From positions 15,445 through 79,444 of the forward strand of contig PLZG01000093.1 in NCBI GenBank assembly GCA_003152075.1: a DNA stretch of 64,000 nucleotides. Direction: 5' to 3'. The position numbers and the translations under genes are program-made. Every line of letters begins with the position of its first letter. Position 1 is the stretch's first letter. This stretch comes from a candidate division FCPU426 bacterium (GTDB lineage: Bacteria > Oederibacteriota > Muellerivitia > Muellerivitales > Muellerivitaceae). This document shows, piece by piece, positions 5,230-51,444 of this stretch. The notes under the pieces are model-generated. The model saw nothing but the letters and a program-made list of their open reading frames with translations. It did no database searches and had not been told where the DNA came from.

Positions 5230-5239
5230 GGAGAGATTA

Positions 5240-8941: not shown

Positions 8942-9010
8942 AAAGCGCCTCTTCCCCCGGTCCCATTTCCTCTTTCGGCTCTCGGGACATAGAATGGGAA
9001 GGGAGGGTTT

Positions 9011-13691: not shown

Positions 13692-13707
13692 CAGATTCCA
13701 ATTTTCC

Positions 13708-14310: not shown

Positions 14311-14311
14311 A

Positions 14312-14614
14312 TTAGAAGAACCTTCGAAGGAAATTGATCGAGAAGTGACAGACGTCGGGAATAAACAAGACAAGAAGGATGCCGAACAAGATGAAGGGGA
14401 TGATCATAATCCAATAGATGAGTTTTCCCTCCGATTTCAGGTCCATGTACTGGAAAAAGACCAGCCCAGCCATCACGAAGGCAATTGCGAAGATAGCAAC
14501 GTTGTTGGTCACGATGGGCAAATGGAGGAAAGTCACCCCTACCGCCGAAAGAGCCATCACCACAAGCACTGAAAATATCATCGTATGGTTATTGGAAGCC
14601 GTGGTTGAGTTCAT
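14312..14614 (-). CDS. Cytochrome c oxidase subunit IV, paralogue 1
   Basis: Three-TM 100-aa protein, paralogous to 12925..13224. Confidence 0.65.
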   Translation of the reverse strand: MNSTTASNNHTMIFSVLVVMALSAVGVTFLHLPIVTNNVAIFAIAFVMAGLVFFQYMDLKSEGKLIYWIMIIPFILFGILLVLFIPDVCHFSINFLRRFF

Positions 14615-14629
14615 TGATTCCTCCTGGGG

Positions 14630-15256
14630 TTAAGCTAAAAGATAAAGCATCGGGAACAGGAAAATCCAGACTACTTCAACGAAAGACCAGTAAATACCCG
14701 TAATGGCCACCCGGCCTTTCCAATTCCCCATCGATCCCGTTAAAGCCCTATTCAAGAGCAGGCCCAGAGCAACCAATCCACCCAGAATGTGGGTAGCGTG
14801 GATTCCTGTCATCAGGAAATAAAAGGACCAGAAACCACCGCTAGTGGGAAATTCACCATGAGCGAACTCAGCTGTGTACTCGAAAGCCTTAACGCCTAGA
14901 AAAAGCACACCCATGGCCATGGTCAGGACTAGGTACTTCTTGACGTTATCGTTGTTTTCCGCCCCTGCCGCACCAGAGGCTTTCATCATGAAAAAATTGC
15001 TGACGAGAAGAACCAACGAGTTAAGAGTGCCGGCGACCAGGTTCAGGTGTCGAGCCTCTTCGGACCACTCGGGATGAATCATGCGCATGAGGATGAAGGA
15101 ACCAAAGAGCCCCGCGAAAAGGACAATTTCGGAGGCGATCAGTGCCCAAATACCCAGCCGGCCCGCGGTCAATCCCGCCGGCGCCGAATTGTAACCTTCA
15201 GGACCCTCATTCTCGGGATAGTGGGGTGTCAATGGCAGGTTGGCGCTTTTATCCAT
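14630..15256 (-). CDS. Cytochrome c oxidase subunit III, paralogue 1
   Basis: Subunit III signatures (..FFMTGIHATHILGGLVAL..). Start set at MDKSANLP (ATG 15254-15256), just after the coxA stop. Confidence 0.8.
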   Translation of the reverse strand: MDKSANLPLTPHYPENEGPEGYNSAPAGLTAGRLGIWALIASEIVLFAGLFGSFILMRMIHPEWSEEARHLNLVAGTLNSLVLLVSNFFMMKASGAAGAENNDNVKKYLVLTMAMGVLFLGVKAFEYTAEFAHGEFPTSGGFWSFYFLMTGIHATHILGGLVALGLLLNRALTGSMGNWKGRVAITGIYWSFVEVVWIFLFPMLYLLA

Positions 15257-16943
15257 GGACCGTTTCTCCTTTGATGTTACTAGCTTGGGAATGCCAATCC
15301 TCGGATTCCCCGGGCTTGCTGTACTCGTAAGGACCACTCGTCACCACCGGAAGAACCGGTCCCCAGTTGCCATGGGGCGGGGGCGAATCGGCAAGCCATT
15401 CCAGGGTGTTGGATTGGTAGGGATTTTTCCCCGCTTTCGGACCGTGGTTCATGCTGAGGACGAGGTTCCAAAGGAAGACGGATTGCGAGGCAATCAGTGA
15501 AATGGCGCAAATCGTGGCGAATATATTCCAATTGGCGAACTGGTGGTACTGGGGATAAAAGGACGGATCAGCTATACGGCGGATCATGCCGCCGATACCC
15601 ACCCTGAATAAAGGCCAGAATGTGCCGTTGAAGAAGATGAAAGTAAGCGCCAAGTGCAACAGGCCCAGCTTCTCGTTGAGCTTGCGGCCGTACATCTTGG
15701 GGAACCAATAGTAAACCGCCGAAAAGCCCCCGAAGAAAACCGAGGGGAATAGGGTGTAGTGGAAGTGAGCCACCACGAAATAGGTGCCATGAAGGTAGAT
15801 ATCGACGGAGGCCGAACCCAAGAAGATGCCGGTCAATCCCCCGACCAGGAAGGTGGCAAGGAACCCTAGCATCCAAAGCATGGGCACCTCCAGGCGGATG
15901 GACCCGTGCCGAAGAGTGGCTAACATACAGAAAATGATGATGGCGAAGGGAATTGAAATGAGGATAGTGGTGATCGAGAAGGGCGTGGCCAGGATCGGGT
16001 TCAAGCCCGACAGGAACATATGATGGGCCCAAACGATGAAGCTCAGAAGGATGGCAGAAACCGTGCTCCACAGGATGAGTTTATAGCCAAAAATGGGCTT
16101 GCGGGTGAAGGTGGCCATTATGTCCAACCCCATCCCCAGGGCCGGGAAGAAAAGTACGTAAACCTCCGGATGGCCGAAGAACCAGAAAAGATGTTCCCAC
16201 AACATCGGCTCACCACCTTTGGCGGGCAGGAAGAAACCGGTGCCGAACATGTTGTCCATGATGAGCATAAAATCGCCAGCGATGAGCGGTCCCACCGAGA
16301 AAAAGAAAGTTACGGCGGAGGCTAGGAGAAACCAAACAGTCATGGGAATACGGGAATAGGTCATGCCCTTCGCGCGAAGGGTAATGGCCGTAACCAGGTA
16401 GTTCAAGCCGCCCAGGCTCGAGGAGAAAAAGGCCATAGCAAGAGCAAGCAGCCACAGGCACGCCCCCCACTTGACACCGGCGAATTCGGAGCTGGCGGAC
16501 AAGGGCGGATAACCTACCCAGCCTCCGGCCACCGGACCGCCCGGGACGAAAAAGGATGCAACCAATAACACGGCTCCGGCGAAAGTTAACCAGAAAGAAG
16601 CCATGTTCAGCTTCGGAAAAGCCATATCCCGCGCACCGATCATCAAGGGAATAAAAAAATTGGAGGGAAATGCCGACAAGAAAGGCATTCCCACGAAGAA
16701 GATCATAATGGTACCGTGCAAGGTGATGATGGCGTTGAACTTGTCCGGCGAAACCAGCCCAAAGAAAGGCGCCGGGACGTTGGGAAATGCCACTTCCCAA
16801 CGGATCAGGTAGGCCATGAACCCGCCCAAACAGGCCATGATAGTGGAGAGCAAAAGAAACTGCTTGCCGATCATCTTATGGTCGGTCGAAAAAATATAGT
16901 GGCTGATGAAACTCTGCTTGTGTTCGTGGGCGTCTTGGCTCAT
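15249..16943 (-). CDS. ctaD: Cytochrome c oxidase subunit I (haem-copper oxidase, A-family)
   Basis: 564 aa, 12 TM. Conserved WFFGHPEVY, the HH pair and other haem a / CuB ligand motifs. The start overlaps the coxB stop (ATGA). Confidence 0.95.
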   Translation of the reverse strand: MSQDAHEHKQSFISHYIFSTDHKMIGKQFLLLSTIMACLGGFMAYLIRWEVAFPNVPAPFFGLVSPDKFNAIITLHGTIMIFFVGMPFLSAFPSNFFIPLMIGARDMAFPKLNMASFWLTFAGAVLLVASFFVPGGPVAGGWVGYPPLSASSEFAGVKWGACLWLLALAMAFFSSSLGGLNYLVTAITLRAKGMTYSRIPMTVWFLLASAVTFFFSVGPLIAGDFMLIMDNMFGTGFFLPAKGGEPMLWEHLFWFFGHPEVYVLFFPALGMGLDIMATFTRKPIFGYKLILWSTVSAILLSFIVWAHHMFLSGLNPILATPFSITTILISIPFAIIIFCMLATLRHGSIRLEVPMLWMLGFLATFLVGGLTGIFLGSASVDIYLHGTYFVVAHFHYTLFPSVFFGGFSAVYYWFPKMYGRKLNEKLGLLHLALTFIFFNGTFWPLFRVGIGGMIRRIADPSFYPQYHQFANWNIFATICAISLIASQSVFLWNLVLSMNHGPKAGKNPYQSNTLEWLADSPPPHGNWGPVLPVVTSGPYEYSKPGESEDWHSQASNIKGETVHG

Positions 16944-17626
16944 TGGGCTCCTCCATGTTCTTCTTTATCTTTTGCGGCAAGCCAATCATCAAAAGTTTTT
17001 TGGTCGTCCACCTGCAAAACTCCTGTCATACGGGTATGGCCGAAACCACAGATTTCGTCGCAAACCAAATGAAAAGTTCCCACTTGGTTTGTGTCAAACC
17101 AGCCATTGATCAGCCGAAGGGGCATGACATCCTGCTTCAAGCGCACCTCGGGCAGGAAAAAATCATGAATGACATCCAGGGAAGTCATGATGATGTGGAT
17201 TTTCTTACCGACCGGCACATGCAATTCGCGGTAGGAGGAAATCGCCGCAGGAGTATCGAACTTACCATCCTTATCGGGATAAAAGAAAGTCCAGTCAAAC
17301 TGCTTGGCTTGCACCTTTACCGTAATATCACAGGGCGGCAGGTCTTCTTTAACATCAGCCCAAGTCTTGCCTCCCCGGAAGTCGAGGAACAGATCAATTC
17401 CCAGGATGATGACGGAAAAAACGATGATCCATTGGATTTGGACCCAAGTATCACCCGTCTCATACTTAGCGGTTGTCCCCTTCTTTTGGCGGTATCTGAC
17501 CACCAAGAAAACAAGATAACCTTCCATTACAACGAAGAAGAACCCAGTGATGTAATAAATCAGTTTTAGCATATTGTCGATATCAGGAGCGAATGACGAG
17601 AGTGACAGGGGCAGGGCATCAAGCAT
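16940..17626 (-). CDS. ctaC: Cytochrome c oxidase subunit II (CuA, no fused cytochrome c)
   Basis: Two N-terminal TM helices. Cupredoxin domain with CuA motif H...CDEICGFGHTRM (C-x3-C-G-x2-H-x2-M). First gene of the operon coxB-coxA-coxC-coxD-coxC'-orf-coxD'. Confidence 0.9.
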   Translation of the reverse strand: MLDALPLSLSSFAPDIDNMLKLIYYITGFFFVVMEGYLVFLVVRYRQKKGTTAKYETGDTWVQIQWIIVFSVIILGIDLFLDFRGGKTWADVKEDLPPCDITVKVQAKQFDWTFFYPDKDGKFDTPAAISSYRELHVPVGKKIHIIMTSLDVIHDFFLPEVRLKQDVMPLRLINGWFDTNQVGTFHLVCDEICGFGHTRMTGVLQVDDQKTFDDWLAAKDKEEHGGAQ

Positions 17627-43025: not shown

Positions 43026-43089
43026 CGGACACCATCAAAGTTGCTTGGCTTTGTCCGTCCCACCCCGCTATGGCGTCCACGCCATAGCG
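43024..43089 (+). terminator. Two hairpins downstream of plsC, including the perfect palindrome CGCTATGGCG-tcca-CGCCATAGCG
   Basis: GACGGACAC...GTCCGTC (43024-43059) and the 10-bp perfect stem at 43066-43089. No strong T-run, so this is a weak terminator or a protein-binding site. Confidence 0.35.
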
Positions 43090-43212
43090 CCCAAACCCCA
43101 TTTCTGTTTTCCTCCCCCTTCTTCCATTCCCAAAAATGCTTTTTCAAAGCTTTTTTCATTGGCACTTCCCTTGCTTTAACCAATGACGACTGTCCAAAGA
43201 CCCCGCGCCTTG

Positions 43213-43232
43213 TATATGACATCTGTCATATA
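43213..43232. promoter_or_regulatory. Perfect 20-bp palindrome TATATGAC-atct-GTCATATA about 67 bp upstream of the cupredoxin operon
   Basis: 8-N4-8 inverted repeat with TGAC-N4-GTCA core. It is the best-conserved instance of the motif found upstream of both RIC genes and pirin. Confidence 0.5.
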
Positions 43233-43298
43233 GAGATAAATGAAGCGGGGATATCTTTCTGGCAGCCGAACTCAGTTTTTAATAAAAGGAGATTTCCA

Positions 43299-43997
43299 AT
43301 GAAGCTTAAAAAAAGTTTAATAAAAGCCGGAAGCAAAAAAACTCTTCGGACTTTATTCGGCGAGCTGTCCATCGGATTGGGGCTGAGCCTCTTCCTGGCC
43401 TCTTTCGCTTTCGCTGGGGAAGGTGCCACAGTATCCGGAAACATCCAAGTGAAGAAAGCCTACGTGGAAACCACCGGGGCCAAGAGCGACAAGGACGTGG
43501 TGGTTTACCTGGTGTCGGCTGAGAAAGGCGCTTCAGCGGCCCCCGTCGAACACGCCAAAATGAACCAAAAAAACCTCGTTTTCGTACCTCACGTTCTGGC
43601 AGTTCAAAAGGGCACCACCGTCGATTTCCTCAACGAGGACGCCGTCAACCATAACGTCTCTTCCCCCGCCGCCTGCTGTTCCTTCGACCTGGGCCAATGG
43701 GGCAAGGGAGTGACAAAAAGCTATAAGTTCGACTCGACGGGCGTGGCTCCCCTCCTTTGCAGCCTGCATCCAGAAATGGCCGCCTCGGTAGTGGTTGTCG
43801 ACACCCCCTATTACACGACGGCCTCCCTTATCACCAACAACGCGGAAAAAAAGCAATCGGCCAAGTACTCCATCAAGGGCGTTCCAGCGGGTGATTACAC
43901 CTTGAAGGTATGGAATGGCAAGTTGGTAGCCGCCGATCAAAAGGTGACCGTCACCGCGACCGGCGCCAAGGCTGATATCGACATCCACAAGAAGTAA
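43299..43997 (+). CDS. Periplasmic type-1 (blue) copper cupredoxin with C-terminal carboxypeptidase-regulatory-like (Ig-like) domain
   Basis: RBS AAAGGAG 7 nt before the ATG. Signal peptide. T1Cu ligand set: His (..NEDAVNHNV..) then C-x2-H-x2-M (CSLHPEM, amicyanin/pseudoazurin-like spacing). The C-terminus has a GDYTLKVWNG beta-sandwich motif. Confidence 0.6.
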   Translation: MKLKKSLIKAGSKKTLRTLFGELSIGLGLSLFLASFAFAGEGATVSGNIQVKKAYVETTGAKSDKDVVVYLVSAEKGASAAPVEHAKMNQKNLVFVPHVLAVQKGTTVDFLNEDAVNHNVSSPAACCSFDLGQWGKGVTKSYKFDSTGVAPLLCSLHPEMAASVVVVDTPYYTTASLITNNAEKKQSAKYSIKGVPAGDYTLKVWNGKLVAADQKVTVTATGAKADIDIHKK

Positions 43998-44024
43998 TCG
44001 GGAAAACCGTAAAGGAGAGCGGCC

Positions 44025-44564
44025 ATGGACTTCACGAATAAAGGCAAATGGATTTCGGCGGTGCTGGTGGTGGTGGCAGGGCTGACCCTGCCGGCCTTCA
44101 CCACGCCGGCCGCTCCCAAACCCGAGCGCCGCGACTTCAGCATCGTGGCCCGCAAGTACGCCTACGACCCCCCGATCATCAAGGTCAACCAGGGGGACGA
44201 GGTGCACGTAAAATTCGCTTCTCGGGACGTGACCCACGGATTTTTCATGGAAGGCTACGATGTCGAAGCCCTTTCCGAGGCCGGCAAATCCACCATCCTC
44301 TTCCGGCACCCTTCGATGACGGGTAACTTCACCCCCGCCGACGAGATCATCTTCACTGCCGATAAGCGCGGTAAATTTCGTTATCGCTGTTCCATGACTT
44401 GCGGCTATATGCACCCCTTCATGTTGGGAGTAATGATCGTGCAGCCCAATTCCCTTTTCGGCCAGGCCCTGGGGCTCATGACCGGAATCCTGCTGGCTGG
44501 CTTCATCCTGGTTTGGCCCGCGGGTAAGATCACCCCGAAAGCGCCGGAAGGAGCCCGCTCATGA
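44025..44564 (+). CDS. Membrane-anchored stand-alone CuA-type cupredoxin (COX2-like copper centre, no haem)
   Basis: N-terminal TM. Cupredoxin domain with His (VTHGF) and CSMTCGYMHPFM, which matches the binuclear CuA signature C-x3-C-G-x2-H-x2-M exactly. C-terminal TM. The stop overlaps the next start (ATGA). Confidence 0.55.
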   Translation: MDFTNKGKWISAVLVVVAGLTLPAFTTPAAPKPERRDFSIVARKYAYDPPIIKVNQGDEVHVKFASRDVTHGFFMEGYDVEALSEAGKSTILFRHPSMTGNFTPADEIIFTADKRGKFRYRCSMTCGYMHPFMLGVMIVQPNSLFGQALGLMTGILLAGFILVWPAGKITPKAPEGARS

Positions 44565-45028
44565 CCCGCAAACTTGAGGAACTCTCCCCTAAGGAAATGC
44601 TGGCCCTGGCCATTTCCATCGAGCAGTCCAACCAAAAGGCCCTGCATAACTTCTCCGAGATGTTCAACGGATATGACGATCAGGTTTCCAAGAATTTCGC
44701 GGAAATGTCCGTGGAGGAAGGCCGCCACGAGCAGATCTTACTGGAAAAATTCAAGAACATGTTCAAGGGGCCTGTTCCGGAAATAAGTAACTTCGACGTT
44801 GAGGAAGTGGTTGAAGCCATTGACTTTGACGACTCCGAGCACTTGATCTTCGACAGCTTGAAGGCCAAGCAAGTTTACCAATTGGCTTACGAGGCCGAAA
44901 AAAGGGCCAAGAGTTTTTACGAGAAGGCCATGAAAACCGTGAAAAACAAGGAATTGGCAGTGCTATTCAAGGAACTGGCCGCAATGGAAGGCGATCACGC
45001 GAATTGGCTGGAAAACAAAATCAAGTAG
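44561..45028 (+). CDS. Rubrerythrin/ferritin-like diiron protein (cytoplasmic)
   Basis: Two E...ExxH half-sites (..IEQ..EEGRH.. and ..EAEKRAK..EGDH..) in a ~150-aa four-helix-bundle-sized protein. No signal peptide. Confidence 0.6.
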   Translation: MTRKLEELSPKEMLALAISIEQSNQKALHNFSEMFNGYDDQVSKNFAEMSVEEGRHEQILLEKFKNMFKGPVPEISNFDVEEVVEAIDFDDSEHLIFDSLKAKQVYQLAYEAEKRAKSFYEKAMKTVKNKELAVLFKELAAMEGDHANWLENKIK

Positions 45029-45038
45029 GAGTGAAACC

Positions 45039-46568
45039 ATGAGTGAAGCCATCAACCCCAATCTAACTCCCCAATCCGTTCCAAGCCCGGTTCCCATACC
45101 CGCTGTCGTCCGGTCGGCCCCAACGCCGCTGACCCCTCCACCCGCCCGAGAGGGTTGGCGCATTGACCTTTTAAAGATGTTCCCCTTGCTCAAGTGGGTG
45201 GTGAAACAACGCTGGTTCCAGTTCGTGGTAATCCTTCCCAACCTATTCCTTTTCCTGGTCTTCTTGGCCGCCGGAATTTGGGGCACCCCGGTGGGCAACC
45301 GTAATATCTTGATCGTCTTCGTTTGGATTTTTTGGTGGTTCCTCCTCATCAGTGCCATGGTGCCCTTCCTTTCTCGCATTTGGTGCACCGTTTGTCCCTT
45401 CCCCTTCTTTGGAGAATGGATCCAACGTGGTTCCCTAACCACCCCCAAAATGGCCACTCCCGGCGCCAAAGGCACCAAGATTGGTATCAATCGCTATTTC
45501 GGTCTGAACCTGCGGTGGCCCAAGGCTCTTTCCAATATTTGGATGCAGAACATCGGTTTCCTCGGCCTTTGCACCTTCAGCGCCTTTTATCTCACCCGGC
45601 CCATCGTCAGCGTGATCGTCCTGGGCAGCTTGATCGTGGTGGCTACCGTGCTCCACGTGATTTATCGCCAAAGGGCCTTCTGCAATTACGTCTGTCCTGT
45701 CAGCGGTTTCTTAAGCCTTTATGCCATGAGTTCCATGACCGAGGTTCGTTCCAAGGATGCCGATGTCTGCCTGAAGTGCCACGACAAGAGCTGTCTGGTG
45801 GGAAGCGAGAGGGGTTGGGGATGTCCCTGGTTCAACTTCCCCAGCAAGATGGAACGAAATAACTATTGCGGCATGTGCATGGAATGCATTAAGTCCTGTC
45901 CCCATGACAACATGACTGTGAATCTGCGGCCCTTCGCCGCCGACACCAAACTCAAAGGCTACGATGAGGCCTGGAAGGCCTTTATCATGCTGGCCCTAGC
46001 CCTGGCCTACAGCGTCATTTACCTGGGCCCTTGGGCTTTTTTCAAAAACCTGGCCAACTACACCGAAAGCGGTGTGGGTCTTCCCGCCTTTATCGGCTAC
46101 GCCCTGGCCCTTTGGGCATTGCCTATGGTAATCATTCCGAGCATCTTCTCGGCATTCCACTGGATCGCGCGCAAGGTTGCTGGAGCCGAGCCGAAACCTT
46201 GGAAAGAATCTTTCCTACTCATGGCCTATCCCCTGGTTCCGCTGGGACTCTTGGCTTGGATCGCCTTCAGCGTACCCCTCATCTTTATCAACGGCAGCTA
46301 CATCCTGGTCACCATGTCCGATCCCTTTGGCTGGGGCTGGGACCTTTTCCATACAGCTCACACGGCCTGGTCGCCCGTCGTGCCTCAGTTGATGCCCACC
46401 ATCCAGGTCTTCATTATGGCCCTGGGGCTGATCCTCACCTTGAAATCGACTTTCAAACAAGCCGGGAAGGTTTATGAGGACGCCAAAGCCAAGGTGCGGT
46501 TCGCCGCCCCCATGGCGATTTTTTACACCGCCATCGTGCTGTTATTCATCCAGCTTTACGTGAACTGA
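45039..46568 (+). CDS. NapH/MauN/CcoG/NosR-C-like polytopic membrane protein with two [4Fe-4S] ferredoxin motifs
   Basis: Two membrane CxxCP motifs (IWCTVCPFP, FCNYVCPVSG), the hallmark of the NapH family. A soluble loop carries CLKCHDKSC...CPW and CGMCMECIKSCP cluster-binding motifs. About 10 TM helices. Pro-rich N-terminus. Confidence 0.65.
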   Translation: MSEAINPNLTPQSVPSPVPIPAVVRSAPTPLTPPPAREGWRIDLLKMFPLLKWVVKQRWFQFVVILPNLFLFLVFLAAGIWGTPVGNRNILIVFVWIFWWFLLISAMVPFLSRIWCTVCPFPFFGEWIQRGSLTTPKMATPGAKGTKIGINRYFGLNLRWPKALSNIWMQNIGFLGLCTFSAFYLTRPIVSVIVLGSLIVVATVLHVIYRQRAFCNYVCPVSGFLSLYAMSSMTEVRSKDADVCLKCHDKSCLVGSERGWGCPWFNFPSKMERNNYCGMCMECIKSCPHDNMTVNLRPFAADTKLKGYDEAWKAFIMLALALAYSVIYLGPWAFFKNLANYTESGVGLPAFIGYALALWALPMVIIPSIFSAFHWIARKVAGAEPKPWKESFLLMAYPLVPLGLLAWIAFSVPLIFINGSYILVTMSDPFGWGWDLFHTAHTAWSPVVPQLMPTIQVFIMALGLILTLKSTFKQAGKVYEDAKAKVRFAAPMAIFYTAIVLLFIQLYVN

Positions 46569-46583
46569 AAAGGGAGGATCAAC

Positions 46584-47552
46584 ATGAAATTCAGGGAAAT
46601 TATCTCCAGCGTCCTCGCGGTAGTGGCCGTGGTCGGGGCCTTCGCCATCCCCTTTGCTTACCAGAAGCAAAGAATGACCAGTGACCATAATGTGCGGACA
46701 ATCACCTTGACCGGTTTGGCCCCGCAAGGCATTTGGACCCAGGATGAGGTTAACGGCGGCAACTATTGGAAAGCCCATTTCAAACCCGCCGAGCTCAACC
46801 TTAAGGCGGGCGAACAGATCCGTCTGATCCTTCGCAGTGCCGACGTAGTCCACCGCTTTTACATGCCCCAATTGGGAATCGGCCCTATTGAGCTTGTTCC
46901 CGGCCATACCGAGGTGGTCAATTTCAAAGCCGACAAGGAGGGAATCTATCCTTACTACTGTACAGCTGTCTGCGGAGATTGCCATTTCCACATGCTAAAC
47001 ATGAGGGGATTGGTTGCCATCGGGAAAGAGATCGACACCAAAACCGCCCCCATCATCAATGAGCCTCTTTGCATGGTGAATATTACTTCGGACCTGCCTT
47101 CCTTCACGGACATCACCCAAAAGGGACATTTCCTGTTCCAAACCAGGGGTTGCGTCACTTGCCACGGGGTCGATGGCGCGGGAGGAATCCCCAACTTCAA
47201 TTACGTACGTGGTACCGTTCCGGCTTTGAACACCTTGGCCTCCAAGATGTCCCTGGGTAGCAAGGATGAAGTGGAGGCCTTTACTAAAGCCCTGGAAATA
47301 AAAGAAGGGCCCGCGAAGGACAAACCCGAACCAGGGCTCTCCAATTGGCCGCTTTCTTTCGCCCAGTATCAGTCGGTTGTAAAAACCATTGAGGGTGGCA
47401 GTCCGCCCTTGAAGGCTGACCCGAATGGGCCCGAACCTCCCCTTTTTATGCCGAGCTGGAAGGAAAACCTCGACCACGAACAGATCAATTCGATAATCGC
47501 CTTTCTTATCTCAGAGCAGAAGTTCGAGGAACACACGGGCTGGGGAAACTAG
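46584..47552 (+). CDS. Cytochrome oxidase subunit II-like CuA protein with fused C-terminal monohaem cytochrome c (caa3-type subunit II architecture, orphan)
   Basis: Single N-terminal TM. CuA signature H(RFYMP)...CTAVCGDCHFHM. C-terminal CVTCH plus Met ligand (LFMPSW). No subunit I gene is adjacent. Confidence 0.7.
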   Translation: MKFREIISSVLAVVAVVGAFAIPFAYQKQRMTSDHNVRTITLTGLAPQGIWTQDEVNGGNYWKAHFKPAELNLKAGEQIRLILRSADVVHRFYMPQLGIGPIELVPGHTEVVNFKADKEGIYPYYCTAVCGDCHFHMLNMRGLVAIGKEIDTKTAPIINEPLCMVNITSDLPSFTDITQKGHFLFQTRGCVTCHGVDGAGGIPNFNYVRGTVPALNTLASKMSLGSKDEVEAFTKALEIKEGPAKDKPEPGLSNWPLSFAQYQSVVKTIEGGSPPLKADPNGPEPPLFMPSWKENLDHEQINSIIAFLISEQKFEEHTGWGN

Positions 47553-47632
47553 TAGAATCTCGTCGGTAACCGGGCGCGGGTGGCGCGCTAATTAAAGCTG
47601 AACAGTAAATTTGTAACCTTGGGAGGGTGTAA

Positions 47633-49012
47633 ATGAGTAATCGTTCAATAAAAGCGATCCTGATCGGGATTTTAGGATGTATTGGTTTGATTGTCTGCGC
47701 GGCTCCCGCCCAGGCATTGCCAACCTTTGCCCGGCAGACAGGCATGTCCTGCGCGGCCTGCCACACGGTTTATCCCGAACTGACGACTTACGGGAGAACC
47801 TTCAAGCTCAACGGCTACACCACCAACAATTCCGATTCACTCAAGGACGGTGCGGATGAGACGGGGTACCGGTTGAATATCAGCAACACTCCCCCGATCG
47901 CGGCCATGCTTCAGGTTGCCGACGTATTTACCCATGCTCCTCAAACAGGCGGTTTAGTGGCCGCCAACTCGGATAACAACGGCACTTTGGAGTTTCCCAG
48001 TCAGTTCAGTCTTTTCTACGCGGGAGCCATCTCCCCGAAGATGGGGGCCTTCGTCCAGTTTACTTACGACTCTGGCTCAGGCTCTTTTGGCATGGACAAT
48101 ACGGACATCCGTATTGCCGACCGTTTTCAAGTGGCCAACACCGATCTGGTCTTGGGCTTAACCCTCAATAACAATCCCACCGTACAGGATATTTTTAACA
48201 ACATTCCGGCTTGGGGCTTCCCCTATGCGACAGGCAAATCGGCCATTACTCCCGCAACCGCCAGCATGATCGAGAGTCTGGGTGGTAGTGTCGGAGGATT
48301 GGGTCTTTACGCCTTTTGGAACCAGCTTTTATACGCTGAAATTTCAGCATACCGCACGGCTCCCCAAGGCATGGAAGCCGTGGGTGCCCCAGACATCCAG
48401 GGTTACGCTCCTTATTGGAGGGTGGCTTTGACCAAGGATTTCGAGACCAATTCCTTTGAAATCGGCGCTTTCGGGATGAACGCTAATACTTATCCAAACA
48501 GCGGGGATCCCACTCTGTTCACTCAAAATAATGTGGACGATATTGGGGTAGACGGTCAGTTCCAGTTCGTGGGCAAGGAACATCAATTGACGGTCAAAGG
48601 AAGTTGCATTTGGGAAAACCAGAAATTGGGCTATTCCAGTCCTGTAACGGTTATCGACCCCAGCGGACCGACGACCACCATCAGCTCAGTCGCGGCCAAT
48701 GCTACCGACACCTTCACGACCGCCAAGGCGGATATCACCTATTATTACGACCGTAAAGTCGGGGCAACGGTGGGCTATTTCACCAACTATGGTTCCGGCG
48801 ACACGGGCCTTTATTCCACCGCCAGCGGAACACCCGATAGCGCCGGCTGGGTGATCGAGGTGAATTACGTGCCTTGGTATAACACGAAATTCTCCTTGCA
48901 ATACACTATGTACGATAAGTTCAACGGTTCCGTGAATAATTACGATACCGTCCCTGGCCGTAACGCTTCGGATAACAACACCCTAATGGCAATGGCTTGG
49001 TTGATGTACTAA
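47633..49012 (+). CDS. cyc2: Cyc2-like fused monohaem cytochrome / outer-membrane beta-barrel porin (paralogue 2)
   Basis: Signal peptide. CxxCH (CAACH) within ~15 aa of the mature N-terminus. The N-terminal motif LPTFARQTGMSCAACH..TYGRTFKLNGY parallels VPMFARMYSYNCTMCH..KFGYNFRAAGY of the gene at 2219. The ~400-aa G/T/N/Y-rich barrel ends ..AWLMY. Confidence 0.6.
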   Translation: MSNRSIKAILIGILGCIGLIVCAAPAQALPTFARQTGMSCAACHTVYPELTTYGRTFKLNGYTTNNSDSLKDGADETGYRLNISNTPPIAAMLQVADVFTHAPQTGGLVAANSDNNGTLEFPSQFSLFYAGAISPKMGAFVQFTYDSGSGSFGMDNTDIRIADRFQVANTDLVLGLTLNNNPTVQDIFNNIPAWGFPYATGKSAITPATASMIESLGGSVGGLGLYAFWNQLLYAEISAYRTAPQGMEAVGAPDIQGYAPYWRVALTKDFETNSFEIGAFGMNANTYPNSGDPTLFTQNNVDDIGVDGQFQFVGKEHQLTVKGSCIWENQKLGYSSPVTVIDPSGPTTTISSVAANATDTFTTAKADITYYYDRKVGATVGYFTNYGSGDTGLYSTASGTPDSAGWVIEVNYVPWYNTKFSLQYTMYDKFNGSVNNYDTVPGRNASDNNTLMAMAWLMY

Positions 49013-49037
49013 TCTCTCTTTCAATTTTTCAGGAGAG

Positions 49038-49072
49038 AAGGCCGGGTTCCATTGGAATCCGGCCTTTTTTAT
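49038..49072 (+). terminator. Rho-independent terminator after cyc2-like paralogue 2
   Basis: AAGGCCGGGTTCCattgGGAATCCGGCCTTTTTT. Confidence 0.65.
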
Positions 49073-49135
49073 TATGACCGCTATCATCTTTTCCCTTACC
49101 TTTCAGACTAAAATGGATCTATCAGGGAGAGTTCA

Positions 49136-49798
49136 ATGGCACTAAACAAGATGACTGTCCCAAATGAAAAAAAGCGGTTCTTCACACCCTTATTAATAGA
49201 ATGGCTGGGGGCCTTGGTTTTATTCTCCTTACTCGCCCCTTCCTTAGCCTTGCCCCCGGCCCAAACTACCCCGGTAAATTCAGTCCACAAAAAAGACCCC
49301 CTTGTCTTGAAAGGCAAACAGCTTTACGCCGACTTGAGGTGCTTTTACTGCCACAAACTCAAGGGTCGGGGTGGTACGGTCGGCCCAGCCCTGGACAACG
49401 TGGGTTTCAGGCGCACCCAGGAATGGATGGCCCACCACTTCCGTGATCCCAAGGAAGTCTCTCAGGGAACCAAAATGATCAACCTCAAGCTGAAAGACAG
49501 CCAGGTTCAGGCCCTGGTGGCTTACATGAATAGCCTGGGAGGCTATACCTTCACCCCCCAAGCTCCGGATCTTTATAAAGCTAACTGTGCCGCTTGTCAT
49601 TCCCTCAACGGCGAGAGCGCGAATGCCACCGACTTGTCCAAGGAAGGAAAATTCCGGGATGTGGACTTCCTCATGGATTACATCCGGGATCCCGCCAACG
49701 TGAACTCGGAGGCCAAAATGATAAAATTTGAGGGTGTTTTGACCGAAGCCCAAATCAAGGATATCGCCGCTTACCTTTACAAGCAGAGCCGCAAATAA
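49136..49798 (+). CDS. Periplasmic dihaem cytochrome c (c4-like)
   Basis: Signal peptide; CFYCH and CAACH. About 45% identical over its length to the C-terminal domain of the cytochrome b at 5743..7374 (shared ..KGRGGTVGPALDNVGFRRTQEWMAHHFRDPKEVSQGTKM..). Confidence 0.8.
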   Translation: MALNKMTVPNEKKRFFTPLLIEWLGALVLFSLLAPSLALPPAQTTPVNSVHKKDPLVLKGKQLYADLRCFYCHKLKGRGGTVGPALDNVGFRRTQEWMAHHFRDPKEVSQGTKMINLKLKDSQVQALVAYMNSLGGYTFTPQAPDLYKANCAACHSLNGESANATDLSKEGKFRDVDFLMDYIRDPANVNSEAKMIKFEGVLTEAQIKDIAAYLYKQSRK

Positions 49799-49974
49799 AG
49801 GCGGTTTTCAATCCGCTAAATGATCTGGATCATATTCCCCTTTTCCGCGAAACATTAGGATACAACCTGTATTGCAGTTCGGGACCAAAACCCCGAGCTT
49901 GAACGGCGGAAAAGTATCAAATAAAAAAGGAGGCGGTCTTAACCAAAGTTAAAATCGACTCTGTTGGAATTTGG

Positions 49975-50015
49975 AAAACAAGGCCGGACCTGGCAAGGCT
50001 CCGGCCTTTTCTTTT
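49975..50015. terminator. Bidirectional intrinsic terminator
   Basis: aaaacaAGGCCGGAcctggcaaggcTCCGGCCttttctttt, flanked by an A-run upstream and a T-run downstream. Confidence 0.6.
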
Positions 50016-50121
50016 AAGGAGCCTTTCTTTTACTTTTATACCTTTTGGGAAGCCTTGGAATTTTTCAATATTTGAATCACTTCCCAATCACTGACCGGTC
50101 GGAAGTCCTCGAAGAATTCCC

Positions 50122-50709: not shown

Positions 50710-51444
50710 CTAATCTAAAAAACCCATCTGATTGGCCCGCTTCAAGAGAATGTTATTCTCCAAGTGGAGATGTTGAATGTTGTCTTTTTCCAGTTCCAGG
50801 AGGGCATCATAAAGGGGCTGGAGCATCATCCGCCTGGATTCGGGCGCGCGAAAATGGTCGGTGAGCCGGTCGATTTCCTTCCATTCCCTGTCCGTCATTC
50901 CATGCTCCCACTCCAACACGCGCAAGGGATGGTTGAAGGAGTCGTATTTACTGAAAGTTTGGGGAAGGGGCCGGTCGTGCAGAAGGCACTGTTCTGCTTC
51001 AATTAAGTAAGGAAAGACCACCTCTTCTTCGCGCCTCAAGTGGTTCTCCATTTCATCGGCCATAGTGTTGAAAAGACTATGGATGGTGGCTAGTTCGGGG
51101 GGCGGCCCCCCGGGACCCGTAACCACCTTATACATCAGACCTTTGACACGCCTCATTTGGGACCGAGCGTAGGTGTGGTGTTTCTTGAGGATGTAACCGA
51201 TCAGCTCAGCTAGTGGTTCCTGTCGCCAGTCCCGCTCCTTATACCATTCCTTTGGGGCAGGCTCGATTTTTTCCAGGGCCTCGGTAACCTCCTCCAATGG
51301 GATGCCGACGTAATAACAAGCGTCTTTCAAAGTCCGACCGCCCTCACAGCAATAGTCGATCCCGAATTTCTCGAATAGGGGGATGGACTCCTTCATTTCC
51401 ACCGCAATTTCAGCGACGCTTTGGGATGGATTAATCTTCGCCAT
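50710..51444 (-). CDS. ytfE: Iron-sulfur cluster repair di-iron protein (RIC/YtfE family), paralogue B
   Basis: N-terminal ..FEKFGIDYCCEGG.. ScdA_N motif plus a hemerythrin-like domain. Collinear with 21463..22206. Confidence 0.8.
   Translation of the reverse strand: MAKINPSQSVAEIAVEMKESIPLFEKFGIDYCCEGGRTLKDACYYVGIPLEEVTEALEKIEPAPKEWYKERDWRQEPLAELIGYILKKHHTYARSQMRRVKGLMYKVVTGPGGPPPELATIHSLFNTMADEMENHLRREEEVVFPYLIEAEQCLLHDRPLPQTFSKYDSFNHPLRVLEWEHGMTDREWKEIDRLTDHFRAPESRRMMLQPLYDALLELEKDNIQHLHLENNILLKRANQMGFLD

What the first reader, a model, noticed from the sequence alone, without database searches (positions are those of the whole stretch)
43213..50015. Copper-rich operon fused to a Cyc2-like cytochrome-porin: candidate undescribed iron-oxidation / extracellular electron-transfer module
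Six translationally tight genes follow a single perfect 20-bp CRP/FNR-type palindrome. The operon ends in two terminators. In order it encodes: (1) a periplasmic type-1 cupredoxin; (2) a stand-alone membrane CuA protein with the exact C-x3-C-G-x2-H-x2-M binuclear signature but no haem and no oxidase partner; (3) a cytoplasmic rubrerythrin-like diiron protein; (4) a NapH/CcoG/NosR-like polyferredoxin membrane protein with two CxxCP and two 4Fe-4S motifs; (5) a COX2-like CuA plus haem c protein with no subunit I; (6) a Cyc2-like outer-membrane cytochrome-porin. A dihaem c4-like cytochrome follows the first terminator. In Acidithiobacillus the rus operon is cyc2-cyc1-coxBACD-rus. Here the canonical cox operon sits elsewhere (12925-17626), and Cyc2 is instead wired to two orphan CuA centres, a blue-copper protein and a NapH-like quinol-side module. 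I do not recognise this combination as a described system. The established functions of the component families suggest a path from outer membrane to periplasm to membrane that bypasses haem-copper subunit I, or that assembles or feeds it in trans.
Basis: partly seen in the sequence, partly recalled or inferred. Interest (0 to 1): 0.85.

Follow-up and report, generated by a model that had tools for sequence, protein, structure and literature searches.

The report
Cyc2-linked copper and iron-sulfur electron module
A six-gene operon joins an outer-membrane iron-oxidising cytochrome-porin (Cyc2) to three copper proteins, an uncharacterised iron-sulfur membrane protein and a cytoplasmic di-iron protein; the same cluster recurs in many bacterial phyla and I found no description of it, so it may be an unknown route for electrons between the cell surface and the cell interior.

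Summary
Six co-oriented genes (43299-49012) encode a type-1 cupredoxin, a small CuA protein, an erythrin-like di-iron protein, a 9-helix polyferredoxin, a COX2-like CuA plus haem c protein, and a Cyc2 cytochrome-porin. A terminator follows. The "perfect 20-bp palindrome" is really 9+2+9. The dihaem gene after the terminator is not a conserved part.

New findings:
- The operon is strictly syntenic in six related genomes, with different flanks.
- The core (small CuA protein, polyferredoxin, COX2-like protein) was present in 48 of 48 complete loci from many phyla. The blue-copper gene was present in 42, a Cyc2 gene in 29 and the di-iron gene in 19.
- Two different Cyc2 subtypes are attached to the same core.
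- Five loci fuse the small CuA protein to the polyferredoxin.
- A complex model docks the di-iron protein on the polyferredoxin's cytoplasmic Fe-S domain.
- The polyferredoxin has no solved relative, and it fails the NapH, CcoG and NosR membership tests.
- The promoter region carries a sigma-54 promoter, an enhancer-like palindrome and a CRP/FNR-type box. The box is shared with the cox and bc operons.

Best reading: this is a respiratory electron path from Cyc2 through copper centres to a new inner-membrane complex. Its direction and terminal chemistry are inferred, not shown.

The parts
43066..43089 (+). Palindrome CGCTATGGCGT-cc-ACGCCATAGCG; candidate upstream activating site for a sigma-54 enhancer-binding protein
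   Evidence: 11+2+11, 100% complementary. CTATGGCG-N4-CGCCATAG occurs only twice in the 4.1-Mb genome. The other copy lies next to a sigma-54 activator gene and a second sigma-54-like promoter at C106:5374-5447. The palindrome is conserved upstream of the module in L023 and L024.
43160..43175 (+). Sigma-54-type promoter TGGCAC-N5-TTGCT (-24/-12 elements)
   Evidence: 13 strict matches in the genome on both strands, 7.7 expected. The same element type lies upstream of g1 in L023 and L024. It lies before the first module gene in 6 of 66 loci from other phyla, against 0.7 expected. A histidine kinase and a sigma-54 activator sit directly upstream of the module in L031.
43213..43232 (+). CRP/FNR-type box TATATGACA-TC-TGTCATATA (core TGA-N6-TCA)
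   Evidence: The genome has 20 copies of TATGA-N6-TCATA against about 3.5 expected, 11 of them on this contig, before cyc2b/bc, cox, RIC and other genes. Similar boxes lie upstream of the module in L023, L024, L025 and L026. Two CRP-family regulator genes lie on the same contig.
43299..43997 (+). g1: secreted type-1 (blue) copper protein with a C-terminal Ig-like domain, 232 aa
   Evidence: The ligand pattern H...C-x2-H-x2-M is kept in 66 of 67 homologues beside the core. The gene is present in 42 of 48 complete loci.
44025..44564 (+). g2: small membrane-anchored CuA-type cupredoxin, 179 aa, with a C-terminal transmembrane helix
   Evidence: H...C-x3-C-x3-H-x2-M is kept in 66 of 68 homologues. 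g2 is fused to the N-terminus of g4 in five loci, including Desulfoluna limicola.
44561..45028 (+). g3: cytoplasmic erythrin-like di-iron protein, 155 aa, without a rubredoxin domain
   Evidence: E21, E53-x2-H56, E113 and E143-x2-H146 are invariant in 22 sequences. g3 is predicted to dock on the Fe-S domain of g4. It is present in 19 of 48 complete loci.
45039..46568 (+). g4: 9-helix inner-membrane polyferredoxin, 509 aa; CxxCP, CxxxCP and 2x[4Fe-4S] motifs, all cytoplasmic
   Evidence: It is the most conserved gene of the operon: 75-91% identity within the family and 55-65% across phyla. It has no relative among solved structures.
46584..47552 (+). g5: COX2-like CuA domain with one N-terminal helix, fused to a monohaem cytochrome c, 322 aa
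   Evidence: CoxB 63.1 bits against a cut-off of 147.7. It follows g4 in 48 of 48 complete loci. CuA ligands are kept in 69 of 76 homologues (Met axial in 54, Leu in 15), and haem c is present in 48 of 76.
47633..49012 (+). g6: Cyc2-family fused cytochrome-porin, 459 aa
   Evidence: Motif ALPTFARQT-GMS-CAACH-TVY-PEL matches the family definition in PMC8406198. C40, C43 and H44 are invariant in 56 homologues. The model is a 16-strand barrel with pLDDT 82.5, and Foldseek finds OmpF, OprP and OprO.
49038..49075 (+). Intrinsic terminator after g6
   Evidence: a 14-bp stem (93% complementary) followed by TTTTTTATT.
49136..49798 (+). g7: dihaem c-type cytochrome, 220 aa; adjacent but not a conserved member
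   Evidence: It is not found downstream of the module in L021-L026. It is 49-54% identical to the dihaem tail of the cytochrome b fusion of relatives.
49975..50018 (+). Second terminator-like hairpin after g7

Best explanation
The six genes form one conserved respiratory module that spans the cell envelope.

Proposed path:
1. Cyc2 (g6) in the outer membrane exchanges electrons with a dissolved extracellular species. Fe(II) is the family's known substrate.
2. The secreted blue-copper protein (g1) and the haem c domain of g5 carry electrons across the periplasm.
3. The two CuA domains (g2 and g5) are the periplasmic ports of a new inner-membrane complex built around the polyferredoxin g4.
4. g4's two [4Fe-4S] clusters and both Cys-Pro motifs lie in the cytoplasm. 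There the erythrin-like di-iron protein g3 docks.

Most likely direction: inward. Cyc2 passes electrons to the copper and haem carriers, these to g4, and g4 to cytoplasmic Fe-S and the di-iron site. That site would reduce O2, H2O2 or NO. Electrons would be taken from the periplasmic side and protons from the cytoplasmic side, as in the charge-separating part of a terminal oxidase, but without a haem-copper subunit I.

Regulation: expression is probably set by a PAS kinase and sigma-54 activator pair, and by a CRP/FNR-type regulator that also controls the cox and bc operons.

Shown by computation: gene content, ligand conservation, synteny, the g2-g4 fusion, g4 topology and the Cyc2 signature.
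Predicted: g3-g4 binding.
Inferred: direction of flow, the terminal acceptor, how electrons cross the membrane, and the regulators.
For: Unit and conservation:
- g1-g6 have the same order in six related genomes with unrelated flanks.
- g5 orthologues are patchy: 7 of 24 genomes of the same family.
- In 48 named loci with complete flanks from many phyla, g5 was present in 48, g2 or a g2-g4 fusion in 48, g1 in 42, Cyc2-like in 29 and g3 in 19. The usual order is cyc2-g1-g2-(g3)-g4-g5.
- Census: a Cyc2-like gene lies within 5 kb of g5-like genes in 24 of 51 carrier genera, and in 0 at random places. By likeness band this is 3 of 12 and 15 of 33, with the two upper bands holding under 5 carriers each.
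- For the g4 core the counts by likeness band are 0 of 96, 0 of 87, 3 of 75 and 15 of 39, and 0 at random.

Two Cyc2 subtypes on one core:
- The window's g6 (FARQT type, at the 3' end) shares only the N-terminal 150 residues or so, at 25-33% identity, with the FARKY-type Cyc2 found 5' of the core elsewhere.

Physical complex:
- Natural g2-g4 fusions of 643-648 aa occur in five loci.
- The complex model for g4 with g3 scores 0.68, against 0.04 for the best of 3 controls. That mark was reached by 58 of 80 solved complexes and 2 of 110 mismatched pairs. The three runs agree in at least 70% of contacts, and the partner's pLDDT is at least 76.
- No like complex is solved, so the pass is not from memory.
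- The interface covers g4 residues 242-254 and 264-276, which hold the Fe-S cysteines. On g3 it covers residues 22-39 and 77-98, which include E85, E93, F97 and D98, residues that are invariant or nearly so outside the di-iron site.

Topology:
- Lys plus Arg count is 37 on the inside and 3 on the outside. All 12 motif cysteines lie in inside loops.

Ligands:
- The copper, haem and di-iron ligands are conserved across phyla.

Context pointing to an electron sink:
- Where Cyc2 is absent, the core sits beside enzymes that hand electrons to periplasmic carriers. Examples are a Rieske/cytochrome b complex with multihaem cytochromes (L029) and an arsenite-oxidase-like molybdoenzyme (L031).

Thermodynamics (established knowledge, not tested here):
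- CuA centres sit near +250 mV.
- Rubrerythrin di-iron sites sit above +200 mV.
- An electron moved inward against the membrane potential needs a high-potential acceptor such as O2 or H2O2.

Regulon:
- The CRP/FNR-type box is shared with the cyc2b-bc, cox and RIC promoters.
- The enhancer-like palindrome is shared only with the operon beside the sigma-54 activator.
Against: - No experiment bears on function, direction or substrate.
- g4 has no haem or other evident cofactor inside the membrane, so there is no visible path for electrons across about 35 A.
- g3 is missing from 29 of 48 complete loci, so the proposed terminal site is optional. Those versions would need another acceptor.
- Ferredoxin-type CxxCxxCxxxCP clusters are usually of low potential. 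That makes CuA to Fe-S transfer uphill.
- The nearest named relatives of g4 (NapH, NosH) are quinol dehydrogenases that send electrons outward.
- The module occurs in sulfate reducers (Desulfoluna, Desulfosarcina, Desulfobulbaceae), where an O2-reducing role is less obvious.
- The genome already has five or six haem-copper oxidase loci.
- Co-transcription is not shown. RNA-library contigs from a relative only touch parts of the operon.
Confidence: 0.45

Rival explanations
1. Outward flow. g4 with g2 and g5 is a NapGH/NosGH-like dehydrogenase in which CuA domains replace the periplasmic Fe-S subunit. It takes electrons from quinol, or from a cytoplasmic donor through the Fe-S domain. It passes them to haem c, the blue-copper protein and Cyc2. 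Cyc2 then reduces an extracellular high-potential acceptor (chelated Fe(III), Mn oxides), or the carriers feed periplasmic reductases.
For: - The only named relatives of g4 are NapH/MauN, at 27.9 bits. They share Cys-Pro motifs and cytoplasmic 2x[4Fe-4S] clusters. From established knowledge, NapGH and NosGH pass quinol electrons to the periplasm.
- Flow from low-potential Fe-S or quinol to CuA is downhill and runs with the membrane potential.
- The module is found in anaerobes: Desulfoluna limicola, Desulfosarcina, Desulfobulbaceae and Thermoanaerobaculia.
- The organism lives in peat, where Fe(III) and humic acceptors are common.
Against: - Cyc2 proteins tested so far oxidise Fe(II) (PMC8406198, PMC13647500). 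None is known as a reductase.
- High-potential copper centres would limit acceptors to those above about +200 mV.
- A di-iron erythrin makes little sense as an electron donor.
- The core sits next to quinol-oxidising Rieske/cytochrome b complexes in L029, and the window's genome has such a complex too. A second quinol dehydrogenase would be redundant there.
- g4 fails NapH membership, and no NapG-like partner is present.
Confidence: 0.25
2. Accessory branch of the ordinary oxidases. The copper proteins and haem c only shuttle electrons from Cyc2 to a canonical haem-copper oxidase encoded elsewhere. g4 (with g3) is a CcoG-like cupric reductase or a NosR-like maintenance factor that keeps the periplasmic copper centres loaded and reduced.
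For: - The genome has five or six COX1 loci, and four of five other carriers tested have one.
- The cox operon shares the CRP/FNR-type box.
- From established knowledge, CcoG and NosR carry the same Fer4_5 and 2x[4Fe-4S] architecture and serve copper enzymes.
- In the fused-g2-g4 subgroup, two NosL copper chaperones and a MacB-type ABC transporter follow the module.
Against: - g4 is the most conserved gene of the module (75-91% identity in the family, 55-65% across phyla). That is more typical of a catalytic core than of an assembly factor.
- g2 is fused to g4, so a CuA centre is a stoichiometric part of it.
- g4 has no FixG_C, Fer4_18 or FMN-binding domain.
- No oxidase genes are linked to the module in any of the loci examined.
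- One carrier MAG had no COX1 match, although its completeness is unknown.
Confidence: 0.15
3. There is no functional unit. The genes are neighbours by chance, or this is a routine variant of a nos or cox cluster, with an ordinary porin that happens to carry CxxCH.
For: - Single domains (COX2, cupredoxin, Fer4_5, rubrerythrin) are common, and the Pfam scores are low.
Against: - The order is conserved across phyla.
- A neighbour control at random places gives 0.
- CxxCH and the Cyc2 motif are invariant.
- The genome has no NosZ.
- The module holds no subunit I, Sco, CtaG or NosDFY.
Confidence: 0.02

Closest known systems
rus operon of Acidithiobacillus ferrooxidans (cyc2-cyc1-cup-coxBACD-rus)
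   Same: An outer-membrane Cyc2, a blue-copper protein, a c-type haem and a CuA subunit-II-like protein are encoded together. The logic is an outer membrane to periplasm to inner membrane chain for Fe(II) electrons.
   Different: There is no subunit I, III or IV and no haem a synthesis genes. In their place stand a second CuA protein, a polyferredoxin with cytoplasmic Fe-S clusters and a di-iron protein. The haem c is fused to the CuA protein. The Cyc2 is of another subtype.
NapGH / NosGH quinol dehydrogenase modules and NosR
   Same: g4 is a membrane protein with Cys-Pro motifs at the cytoplasmic face and a cytoplasmic 2x[4Fe-4S] ferredoxin domain. It is associated with periplasmic redox partners, and in the Nos system that partner is a CuA enzyme.
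   Different: g4 has 9 helices rather than 4-6. It scores 27.9 bits against a NapH cut-off of 213. It has no NapG-like periplasmic Fe-S partner, no FMN-binding domain and no NosZ. Its partners are CuA cupredoxins, one of them fused to it in some lineages.
CcoG (FixG) cupric reductase of cbb3 oxidase assembly
   Same: Both have a Fer4_5 membrane domain plus two [4Fe-4S] clusters, and both are linked to copper proteins.
   Different: g4 has no FixG_C or Fer4_18 domains and no ccoGHIS or ccoNOQP context. It is far more conserved than the genes around it and is fused to a CuA domain.
Rubrerythrin, sulerythrin and the erythrin domain of MbfA
   Same: g3 is a four-helix di-iron carboxylate protein with two ExxH motifs. 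Family members reduce H2O2 or O2 at a high-potential di-iron site.
   Different: g3 has no rubredoxin domain and no VIT1 transporter domain. It is predicted to dock on a membrane polyferredoxin, not on rubredoxin.
Cyc2-Cyc1-cbb3 pathway of neutrophilic iron oxidisers (Zetaproteobacteria, Gallionellaceae)
   Same: Cyc2 is the outer-membrane entry point. Proteins 43-48% identical to g6 sit beside cytochrome c or bc-complex genes.
   Different: Here the periplasmic and inner-membrane partners are copper and Fe-S proteins. They are not soluble cytochromes feeding a cbb3 oxidase.

Membership tests
Cyc2 fused cytochrome-porin (criteria of Keffer et al. 2021, PMC8406198) | N-terminal signal peptide and a single CXXCH | tested here: met
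   g6 starts MSNRSIKAILIGILGCIGLIVCAAPAQA and has one CAACH. C40, C43 and H44 are invariant in 56 homologues.
Cyc2 fused cytochrome-porin (criteria of Keffer et al. 2021, PMC8406198) | AXPXFAR[Q/K][T/Y] motif just upstream of CXXCH, and PXL four residues after it | tested here: met
   ALPTFARQT-GMS-CAACH-TVY-PEL, checked against the definition read.
Cyc2 fused cytochrome-porin (criteria of Keffer et al. 2021, PMC8406198) | Length of at least 365 aa with a 16-strand beta-barrel porin | tested here: met
   g6 is 459 aa. The AlphaFold2 model has pLDDT 82.5 and pTM 0.81 with 16 long strands. Foldseek best matches are 16-strand porins, including OprP 2o4v and OprO 4rjw.
Cyc2 fused cytochrome-porin (criteria of Keffer et al. 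2021, PMC8406198) | Fe(II) oxidase activity; assignment to FeGenie cluster 1, 2 or 3 | not testable with these tools
The FeGenie HMMs and reference sequences are not at hand.
Haem-copper oxidase subunit II (CoxB, TIGR02866) | Score over the family cut-off | tested here: not met
   g5 scores 63.1 bits and g2 25.8 bits, against a cut-off of 147.7.
Haem-copper oxidase subunit II (CoxB, TIGR02866) | CuA ligand set H...C-x3-C-x3-H-x2-M | tested here: met
   g2 has CSMTCGYMHPFM and g5 has CTAVCGDCHFHM. The set is conserved in 66 of 68 g2 homologues and 69 of 76 g5 homologues.
Haem-copper oxidase subunit II (CoxB, TIGR02866) | Encoded with, and bound to, a subunit I | tested here: not met
   There is no COX1 in the operon. 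None was seen in the gene tables of four other loci or in the syntenic relatives. The binding itself is not testable.
NapH/MauN ferredoxin-type protein (TIGR02163) | Score over the cut-off; four helices; NapG-like partner | tested here: not met
   g4 scores 27.9 bits against a cut-off of 213. It has nine helices. No periplasmic Fe-S protein is encoded in the operon.
NapH/MauN ferredoxin-type protein (TIGR02163) | Two Cys-Pro motifs and two [4Fe-4S] motifs on the cytoplasmic side | tested here: met
   C116/C119-P, C215/C219-P, C244/247/252/262 and C277/280/283/287 are all invariant in 47 sequences. All lie in inside loops.
CcoG/FixG cupric reductase | FixG_C and Fer4_18 domains; ccoGHIS context | tested here: not met
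   The only Pfam match is Fer4_5. The neighbours are cupredoxins.
NosR / nos cluster | Periplasmic FMN-binding domain; NosZ and NosDFY present | tested here: not met
   g4 has no FMN_bind match. No NosZ in the genome scores over the cut-off; the best match is 48.8 bits against 625, and it is the CuA domain of g5.
Rubrerythrin | Di-iron ligands E, ExxH, E, ExxH | tested here: met
   Pfam Rubrerythrin at 3.7e-14. The ligands are invariant in 22 sequences.
Rubrerythrin | C-terminal rubredoxin-like Fe(Cys)4 domain | tested here: not met
   g3 has 155 aa and no cysteine pairs. It belongs with the erythrin/sulerythrin type.
Sigma-54-dependent operon | -24 GG and -12 GC elements at the correct spacing, an upstream palindrome, and an activator gene in the genome | tested here: met
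   TGGCAC-N5-TTGCT lies at 43160-43175. The palindrome at 43066-43089 is shared only with the region beside the activator gene C106:5484-6881. Activity is not testable here.

The most novel reading that the evidence does not exclude
g2-g4-g5, with g3 where present, is a new class of respiratory enzyme and a third biological home for CuA besides haem-copper oxidases and N2O reductase. It would take electrons at periplasmic CuA ports, carry them across the membrane through a NapH-like polyferredoxin without haem, and reduce O2, H2O2 or NO at a cytoplasmic di-iron site. This would conserve energy by charge separation. It would be the missing inner-membrane partner of Cyc2 in many uncultured lineages of peat, sediments and groundwater.
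Probability: 0.2. Interest if true: 0.95.

Novelty: new variant of a known kind. Interest (0 to 1): 0.8.

Why it matters
- Cyc2 is the most widespread candidate marker of microbial Fe(II) oxidation. What takes its electrons at the inner membrane is known only for a few proteobacteria and acidophiles.
- This module gives a specific, conserved and testable partner set. The six-gene form occurs in the window's lineage, and the cyc2-g1-g2-(g3)-g4-g5 form occurs in Acidobacteriota, Planctomycetota, Fidelibacterota, Ignavibacteria, Myxococcota, Desulfobacterota and others.
- One cultured carrier exists (Desulfoluna limicola ASN36), which opens the way to genetics and biochemistry.
- The polyferredoxin family is large: over 1000 sequence clusters, and 1263 genera score at least 100 bits in the census. 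It has no solved structure and no known function. Its copper partners would extend the known uses of CuA.
- If the core is a terminal sink, it changes how Fe(II)-, As(III)- or quinol-derived electrons are budgeted in microoxic peat and sediment.
- If it runs outward, Cyc2 genes can no longer be read as iron-oxidation markers by themselves.

Tried and rejected
- A profile search of g4 against PDB sequences found 0 matches at E up to 1.
- Foldseek of the g4 model found no match at E up to 0.001.
- VIA-align wide found only generic helical-bundle matches with Z under 8, over residues 307-509. This does not show that the fold is new.
- The ESM Atlas search for g4 found only unnamed Fer4_5 clusters.
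- The listing of cluster members returned no names for ten Cyc2 relatives.
- NCBI taxonomy knows the phylum name Oederibacteriota, but no paper in the library uses it.
- Literature searches for Cyc2 with cupredoxin, rubrerythrin, polyferredoxin, 4Fe-4S or NapH, and for polyferredoxin with cupredoxin, gave no description of the cluster.
- The polyferredoxin mentioned for Ca. Tenderia electrophaga is described with three hypothetical proteins in a region syntenic with Mariprofundus. I could not check its sequence and left the lead open.
- A COX1 census in five other carriers was meant to test 'feeds an oxidase in trans'. Four of five have COX1, and the fifth is a MAG of unknown completeness, so the test does not discriminate.
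- RNA evidence: one soil metatranscriptome holds contigs 90-96% alike to parts of g1/g2, g2, g4, g5, the end of g6, and g7. One contig bridges the g1-g2 junction. These come from a relative, DNA carry-over cannot be excluded, and contigs cannot show a single transcript.
- The promoter and terminator scanner missed the terminator after g6 because its loop is too tight. I found it by inverted-repeat search and by eye.
- The CLKCH in g4 looked like a haem c site. I rejected this because it lies in the cytoplasm and the His is not conserved in the wider family.
- A conserved periplasmic HxxH in g4 (H438, H441) is likewise not conserved outside the family.

Full report
**What is there**

On the + strand between 43299 and 49798 lie seven ORFs. 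The first six are tightly packed, with gaps of 27, -4, 10, 15 and 80 nt. A strong hairpin with a T-run follows them at 49038-49075. The seventh ORF starts 123 nt after g6 and ends before a second hairpin near 49975-50018.

- g1 (232 aa): plastocyanin/azurin-type copper protein with a C-terminal Ig-like domain.
- g2 (179 aa): cupredoxin with CSMTCGYMHPFM.
- g3 (155 aa): rubrerythrin-fold protein. Its best NCBIfam match is the N-terminal erythrin domain of MbfA.
- g4 (509 aa): Fer4_5, with weak NapH similarity (27.9 bits against a cut-off of 213).
- g5 (322 aa): COX2 plus cytochrome c (CoxB 63.1 bits against 147.7).
- g6 (459 aa): no Pfam family.
- g7 (220 aa): dihaem c.

The canonical cox operon lies on the minus strand at 13708-17626. 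The palindrome at 43213-43232 has 9-nt arms around a 2-nt asymmetric centre, so it is not a perfect 20-mer.

**g6 is a Cyc2**

Keffer et al. (PMC8406198, read) define the family by these features:
- a signal peptide;
- one CXXCH;
- an AXPXFAR[Q/K][T/Y] motif just upstream of it;
- PXL four residues downstream;
- a length of at least 365 aa;
- a 16-strand porin.

g6 reads ...AQ-ALPTFARQT-GMS-CAACH-TVY-PEL.... The haem cysteines and histidine are invariant in 56 homologues. The family has more than 3466 members in the protein collection. The AlphaFold2 model (pLDDT 82.5) is a 16-strand barrel. Its Foldseek matches are OmpF-type porins and the phosphate porins OprP and OprO, the same relatives reported for Cyc2. 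The refutation 'ordinary porin with an unconserved CxxCH' therefore fails.

**The operon is a conserved unit**

- Cyc2 relatives at 70% and 56% identity sit at the end of the same g1-g5 series, in contigs whose flanks are unrelated to the window's. One has an integrase directly upstream.
- A search of 40 related genomes found g5 orthologues in 7 of 24 genomes of the same family and in one of the same order.
- Six fetched loci carry g1-g6 in the same order. A seventh contig is too short to judge.
- g7 is never downstream there.
- g4 is the best conserved gene, at 75-91% identity.
- Cyc2 relatives at 48% and 44% identity lie in other contexts: cytochrome c-Cyc2-Rieske-cytochrome b, and Cyc2-cytochrome c.

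**The core is much wider than this lineage**

- g4 has over 1000 relatives that are 55-65% identical, annotated only as '4Fe-4S binding protein' or 'polyferredoxin'.
- A scan of one genome per species returned 80 named loci. They come from Acidobacteriota, Planctomycetota, Myxococcota, Fidelibacterota/Neomarinimicrobiota, Ignavibacteria, Gemmatimonadota, Binatia, Omnitrophota, Armatimonadota, Verrucomicrobiota and Desulfobacterota. One is from a cultured strain, Desulfoluna limicola ASN36.
- I annotated these loci with profiles built from the family-level orthologues.
- Among the 48 loci with complete flanks, g5 follows g4 in 48. g2 precedes g4, or is fused to it, in 48. g1 is present in 42, a Cyc2-like gene in 29 (28 of them upstream of g1) and g3 in 19. 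The usual order is cyc2-g1-g2-(g3)-g4-g5.
- The metal ligands are kept: g2 CuA in 66 of 68; g5 CuA in 54 of 76 with Met and 15 of 76 with Leu; haem c in 48 of 76; g1 type-1 copper in 66 of 67.
- Genus-level census, g5-like genes (at least 120 bits): found in 51 genera of 12 phyla, with a Cyc2-like neighbour in 24 and none at random places. By likeness band the counts are 3 of 12 and 15 of 33, with the upper bands too small to count.
- Genus-level census, g4 core domain (at least 100 bits): found in 1263 genera of 58 phyla. The Cyc2 link is confined to the closest forms. By band the counts are 0 of 96, 0 of 87, 3 of 75 and 15 of 39, and 0 at random.

**Two Cyc2 subtypes, one core**

The module-linked Cyc2s of other phyla read PxFAR[KR]YxTSCxTCH..P.L. 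They match g6 only over the N-terminal 150 residues or so, at 25-33% identity. g6 itself is 43-49% identical over its full length to Cyc2s of bc-complex or cytochrome c contexts. In the window's lineage the Cyc2 gene is also at the other end of the operon. The simplest reading is that a Cyc2 of another subtype was recruited to, or replaced in, the same core. That argues for a functional link rather than inherited adjacency.

**Evidence for a physical complex**

- In five loci g2 and g4 are one protein of 643-648 aa. These are a Desulfobacteraceae MAG, a Verrucomicrobiales MAG, a Desulfobulbaceae MAG, D. limicola and Desulfosarcina. The fused protein runs: signal or anchor, CuA domain, one helix, then g4.
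- This fits the g4 topology. Lys plus Arg count is 37 in the even loops and 3 in the odd loops, so the N-terminus is inside. All twelve cysteines of the CxxCP, CxxxCP and two [4Fe-4S] motifs are cytoplasmic (helices from the model).
- g3 has no signal peptide, and its start overlaps the stop of g2.
- The complex prediction for g4 with g3 supports binding. The score is 0.68, against 0.04 for the best of three controls. That mark was reached by 58 of 80 solved complexes and 2 of 110 mismatched pairs. The runs agree in at least 70% of contacts, and the partner's pLDDT is at least 76.
- The interface lies on g4 residues 147-166, 210, 216, 242-254, 264-272, 276 and 306, which is the Fe-S domain. 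On g3 it lies on residues 22-39 and 77-98. These include E85, E93, F97 and D98, which are invariant or nearly so but are not di-iron ligands.
- No similar complex is solved, so the pass is not a memory effect. It remains a model, not a measurement.

**Regulation**

Three elements precede g1.

1. A sigma-54-type promoter, TGGCAC-N5-TTGCT, lies at 43160-43175.
   - The same kind of element stands upstream of g1 in two relatives.
   - It stands before the first module gene in 6 of 66 loci elsewhere, against 0.7 expected.
   - In a Planctomycetota locus, a histidine kinase and a sigma-54 activator directly precede the module.
2. The palindrome CTATGGCG-N4-CGCCATAG lies at 43066-43089, about 90 bp upstream.
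   - It occurs only twice in the genome.
   - The other copy is at C106:5447, beside a second sigma-54-like promoter.
   - That copy lies immediately next to the gene of a response-regulator-type sigma-54 activator (C106:5484-6881).
   - A PAS histidine kinase and two CRP-family regulator genes lie nearby on the same contig.
   - The genome has 20 copies against about 3.5 expected, and 11 are on this contig.
   - All seven copies inside the window are intergenic.
   - They stand before the second Cyc2-like gene with its cytochrome c/Rieske/cytochrome b operon (1986), a hemerythrin gene (8312), the cox operon (17776 and 13317), the module (43215), the RIC/ScdA gene (51519) and PEPCK (63356).
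   - Its centre lies 41.5 bp upstream of a possible start near 43264, with TATCTT at -12 to -7. A class II CRP/FNR-dependent promoter is therefore possible (inference).

The module thus appears to belong to the respiratory regulon of the organism.

**What it is not**

- It has no subunit I and no NosZ. The genome has none over the cut-off.
- It has no NosDFY, Sco or CtaG.
- g4 fails NapH by score, helix number and partner. It fails CcoG (no FixG_C or Fer4_18 domain) and NosR (no FMN domain).
- g5 and g2 fail CoxB by score. g5 has one helix, not two.
- g3 lacks the rubredoxin domain of true rubrerythrins.

**How it most likely works**

The parts give a continuous chain: outer-membrane haem (Cyc2), periplasmic type-1 copper and haem c, two CuA ports on g4, cytoplasmic Fe-S clusters, and the di-iron site.

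I favour inward flow, for three reasons:
- Every Cyc2 tested oxidises Fe(II).
- Where Cyc2 is missing, the core sits next to enzymes that reduce periplasmic carriers. Examples are a Rieske/cytochrome b complex with multihaem cytochromes, and an arsenite-oxidase-like molybdoenzyme. That is the place a terminal oxidase would take.
- From general knowledge, a high-potential di-iron centre is a competent acceptor for electrons of CuA potential and reduces O2, H2O2 or NO.

Taking electrons from outside and protons from inside would conserve energy.

The weak points are these:
- There is no visible cofactor inside the membrane.
- g3 is optional (19 of 48 complete loci).
- Ferredoxin-type clusters usually have a low potential.
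- The module is present in sulfate reducers.
- g4's nearest relatives work in the outward direction.

I therefore keep two rivals open. One is an outward, NapGH-like quinol (or cytoplasmic donor) to CuA to Cyc2 route. The other is an accessory role in shuttling electrons or maintaining copper centres for the ordinary oxidases. The genome has five or six such oxidase loci.

**Organism and habitat**

- The closest census carriers fall in GTDB phylum Oederibacteriota, class Muellerivitia.
- NCBI titles of relatives say 'uncultured proteobacterium'.
- Contigs at least 99% identical occur in peat metagenomes of three studies.
- A soil metatranscriptome holds 90-96% similar contigs over parts of the operon. 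This is weak evidence for expression of a relative's copy.

**Novelty**

The component superfamilies are known, and the Cyc2-based logic resembles the rus operon. The inner-membrane complex and the conserved cluster are not described in any paper I could search, including a November 2026 review. I rate the finding a new variant of a known kind. There is a real chance that the core is a categorically new respiratory enzyme.

Noticed in passing
window 1986-7374: A second, divergent Cyc2-like gene lies at 2219-3487 (AVPMFARMY-SYN-CTMCH, without the PXL motif). It is followed by three monohaem cytochromes c, a Rieske protein and a cytochrome b fused to a dihaem cytochrome c. The same TATGA-N6-TCATA box lies at 1986. 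This looks like a Cyc2-bc complex operon, and a similar arrangement is seen in L008.
   Followed up: partly
G000 contig C106:1-15444 (L112), upstream of the window: A regulatory island holds a sigma-54 activator with a receiver domain (5484-6881, minus strand), a PAS histidine kinase (7540-8667, minus strand) and two CRP/FNR-family regulators (4181-4879 and 8891-9550, both minus strand). It also holds a single-domain response regulator and a MacB-type ABC/FtsX pair. The only other genomic copy of the module's upstream palindrome lies at 5447, beside a sigma-54-like promoter.
   Followed up: partly
window 8312, 13317, 17776, 51519, 63356, plus contigs C5 and C35: TATGA-N6-TCATA boxes cluster on three contigs: 11 on C106, 4 on C35 and 3 on C5. 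In the window they stand before hemerythrin, cox, RIC/ScdA and PEPCK genes. This suggests one CRP/FNR-type regulon of respiration and carbon metabolism. The genes on C5 and C35 were not examined.
   Followed up: no
L068, L070, L075, L081, L084, L093: This subgroup has the fused g2-g4 protein (L093 was not checked for the fusion). It carries, downstream of g5, a MacB-type FtsX permease and ABC ATPase, an FtrD-like Fe-S protein and two NosL copper chaperones. These are likely maturation factors for the copper centres. Such genes are not adjacent to the module in the window.
   Followed up: partly
L029:6207-6524: A 105-aa ORF carries only the Cyc2 cytochrome domain (PSFARRYQTSCQTCH...PKL) without a porin. 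It lies just upstream of the core and downstream of a Rieske/cytochrome b/multihaem set. It is either a soluble or truncated Cyc2 head or a broken gene.
   Followed up: no
L049, L051, L052, L066, L072, L099: A 655-725-aa ORF with eight CXXCH motifs follows the core in several Fidelibacterota and Terriglobia loci. It may be a further periplasmic partner.
   Followed up: no
G000:C1:4852-6193 (L115, L118): One of the COX1 loci of the genome is read in two pieces, with an in-frame TGA in one piece. This could be a frameshift, a split gene or an assembly error.
   Followed up: no
window 50710-51444 (minus strand): A RIC/ScdA-type di-iron repair protein (ScdA_N plus hemerythrin) is encoded convergently just downstream, with its own box at 51519. 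It hints at NO or oxidative stress as a shared signal. It is not conserved next to the module in relatives.
   Followed up: partly
L006:4632-5612 and L003:18854-19897: An integrase (rve) gene directly precedes the module in one relative, and a DDE transposase gene lies nearby in another. Together with the patchy distribution (7 of 24 family genomes), this suggests that the module moves horizontally.
   Followed up: no
window 12004-12837 (minus strand): An AurF-like di-iron N-oxygenase family protein is encoded at the end of the cox gene row.
   Followed up: no
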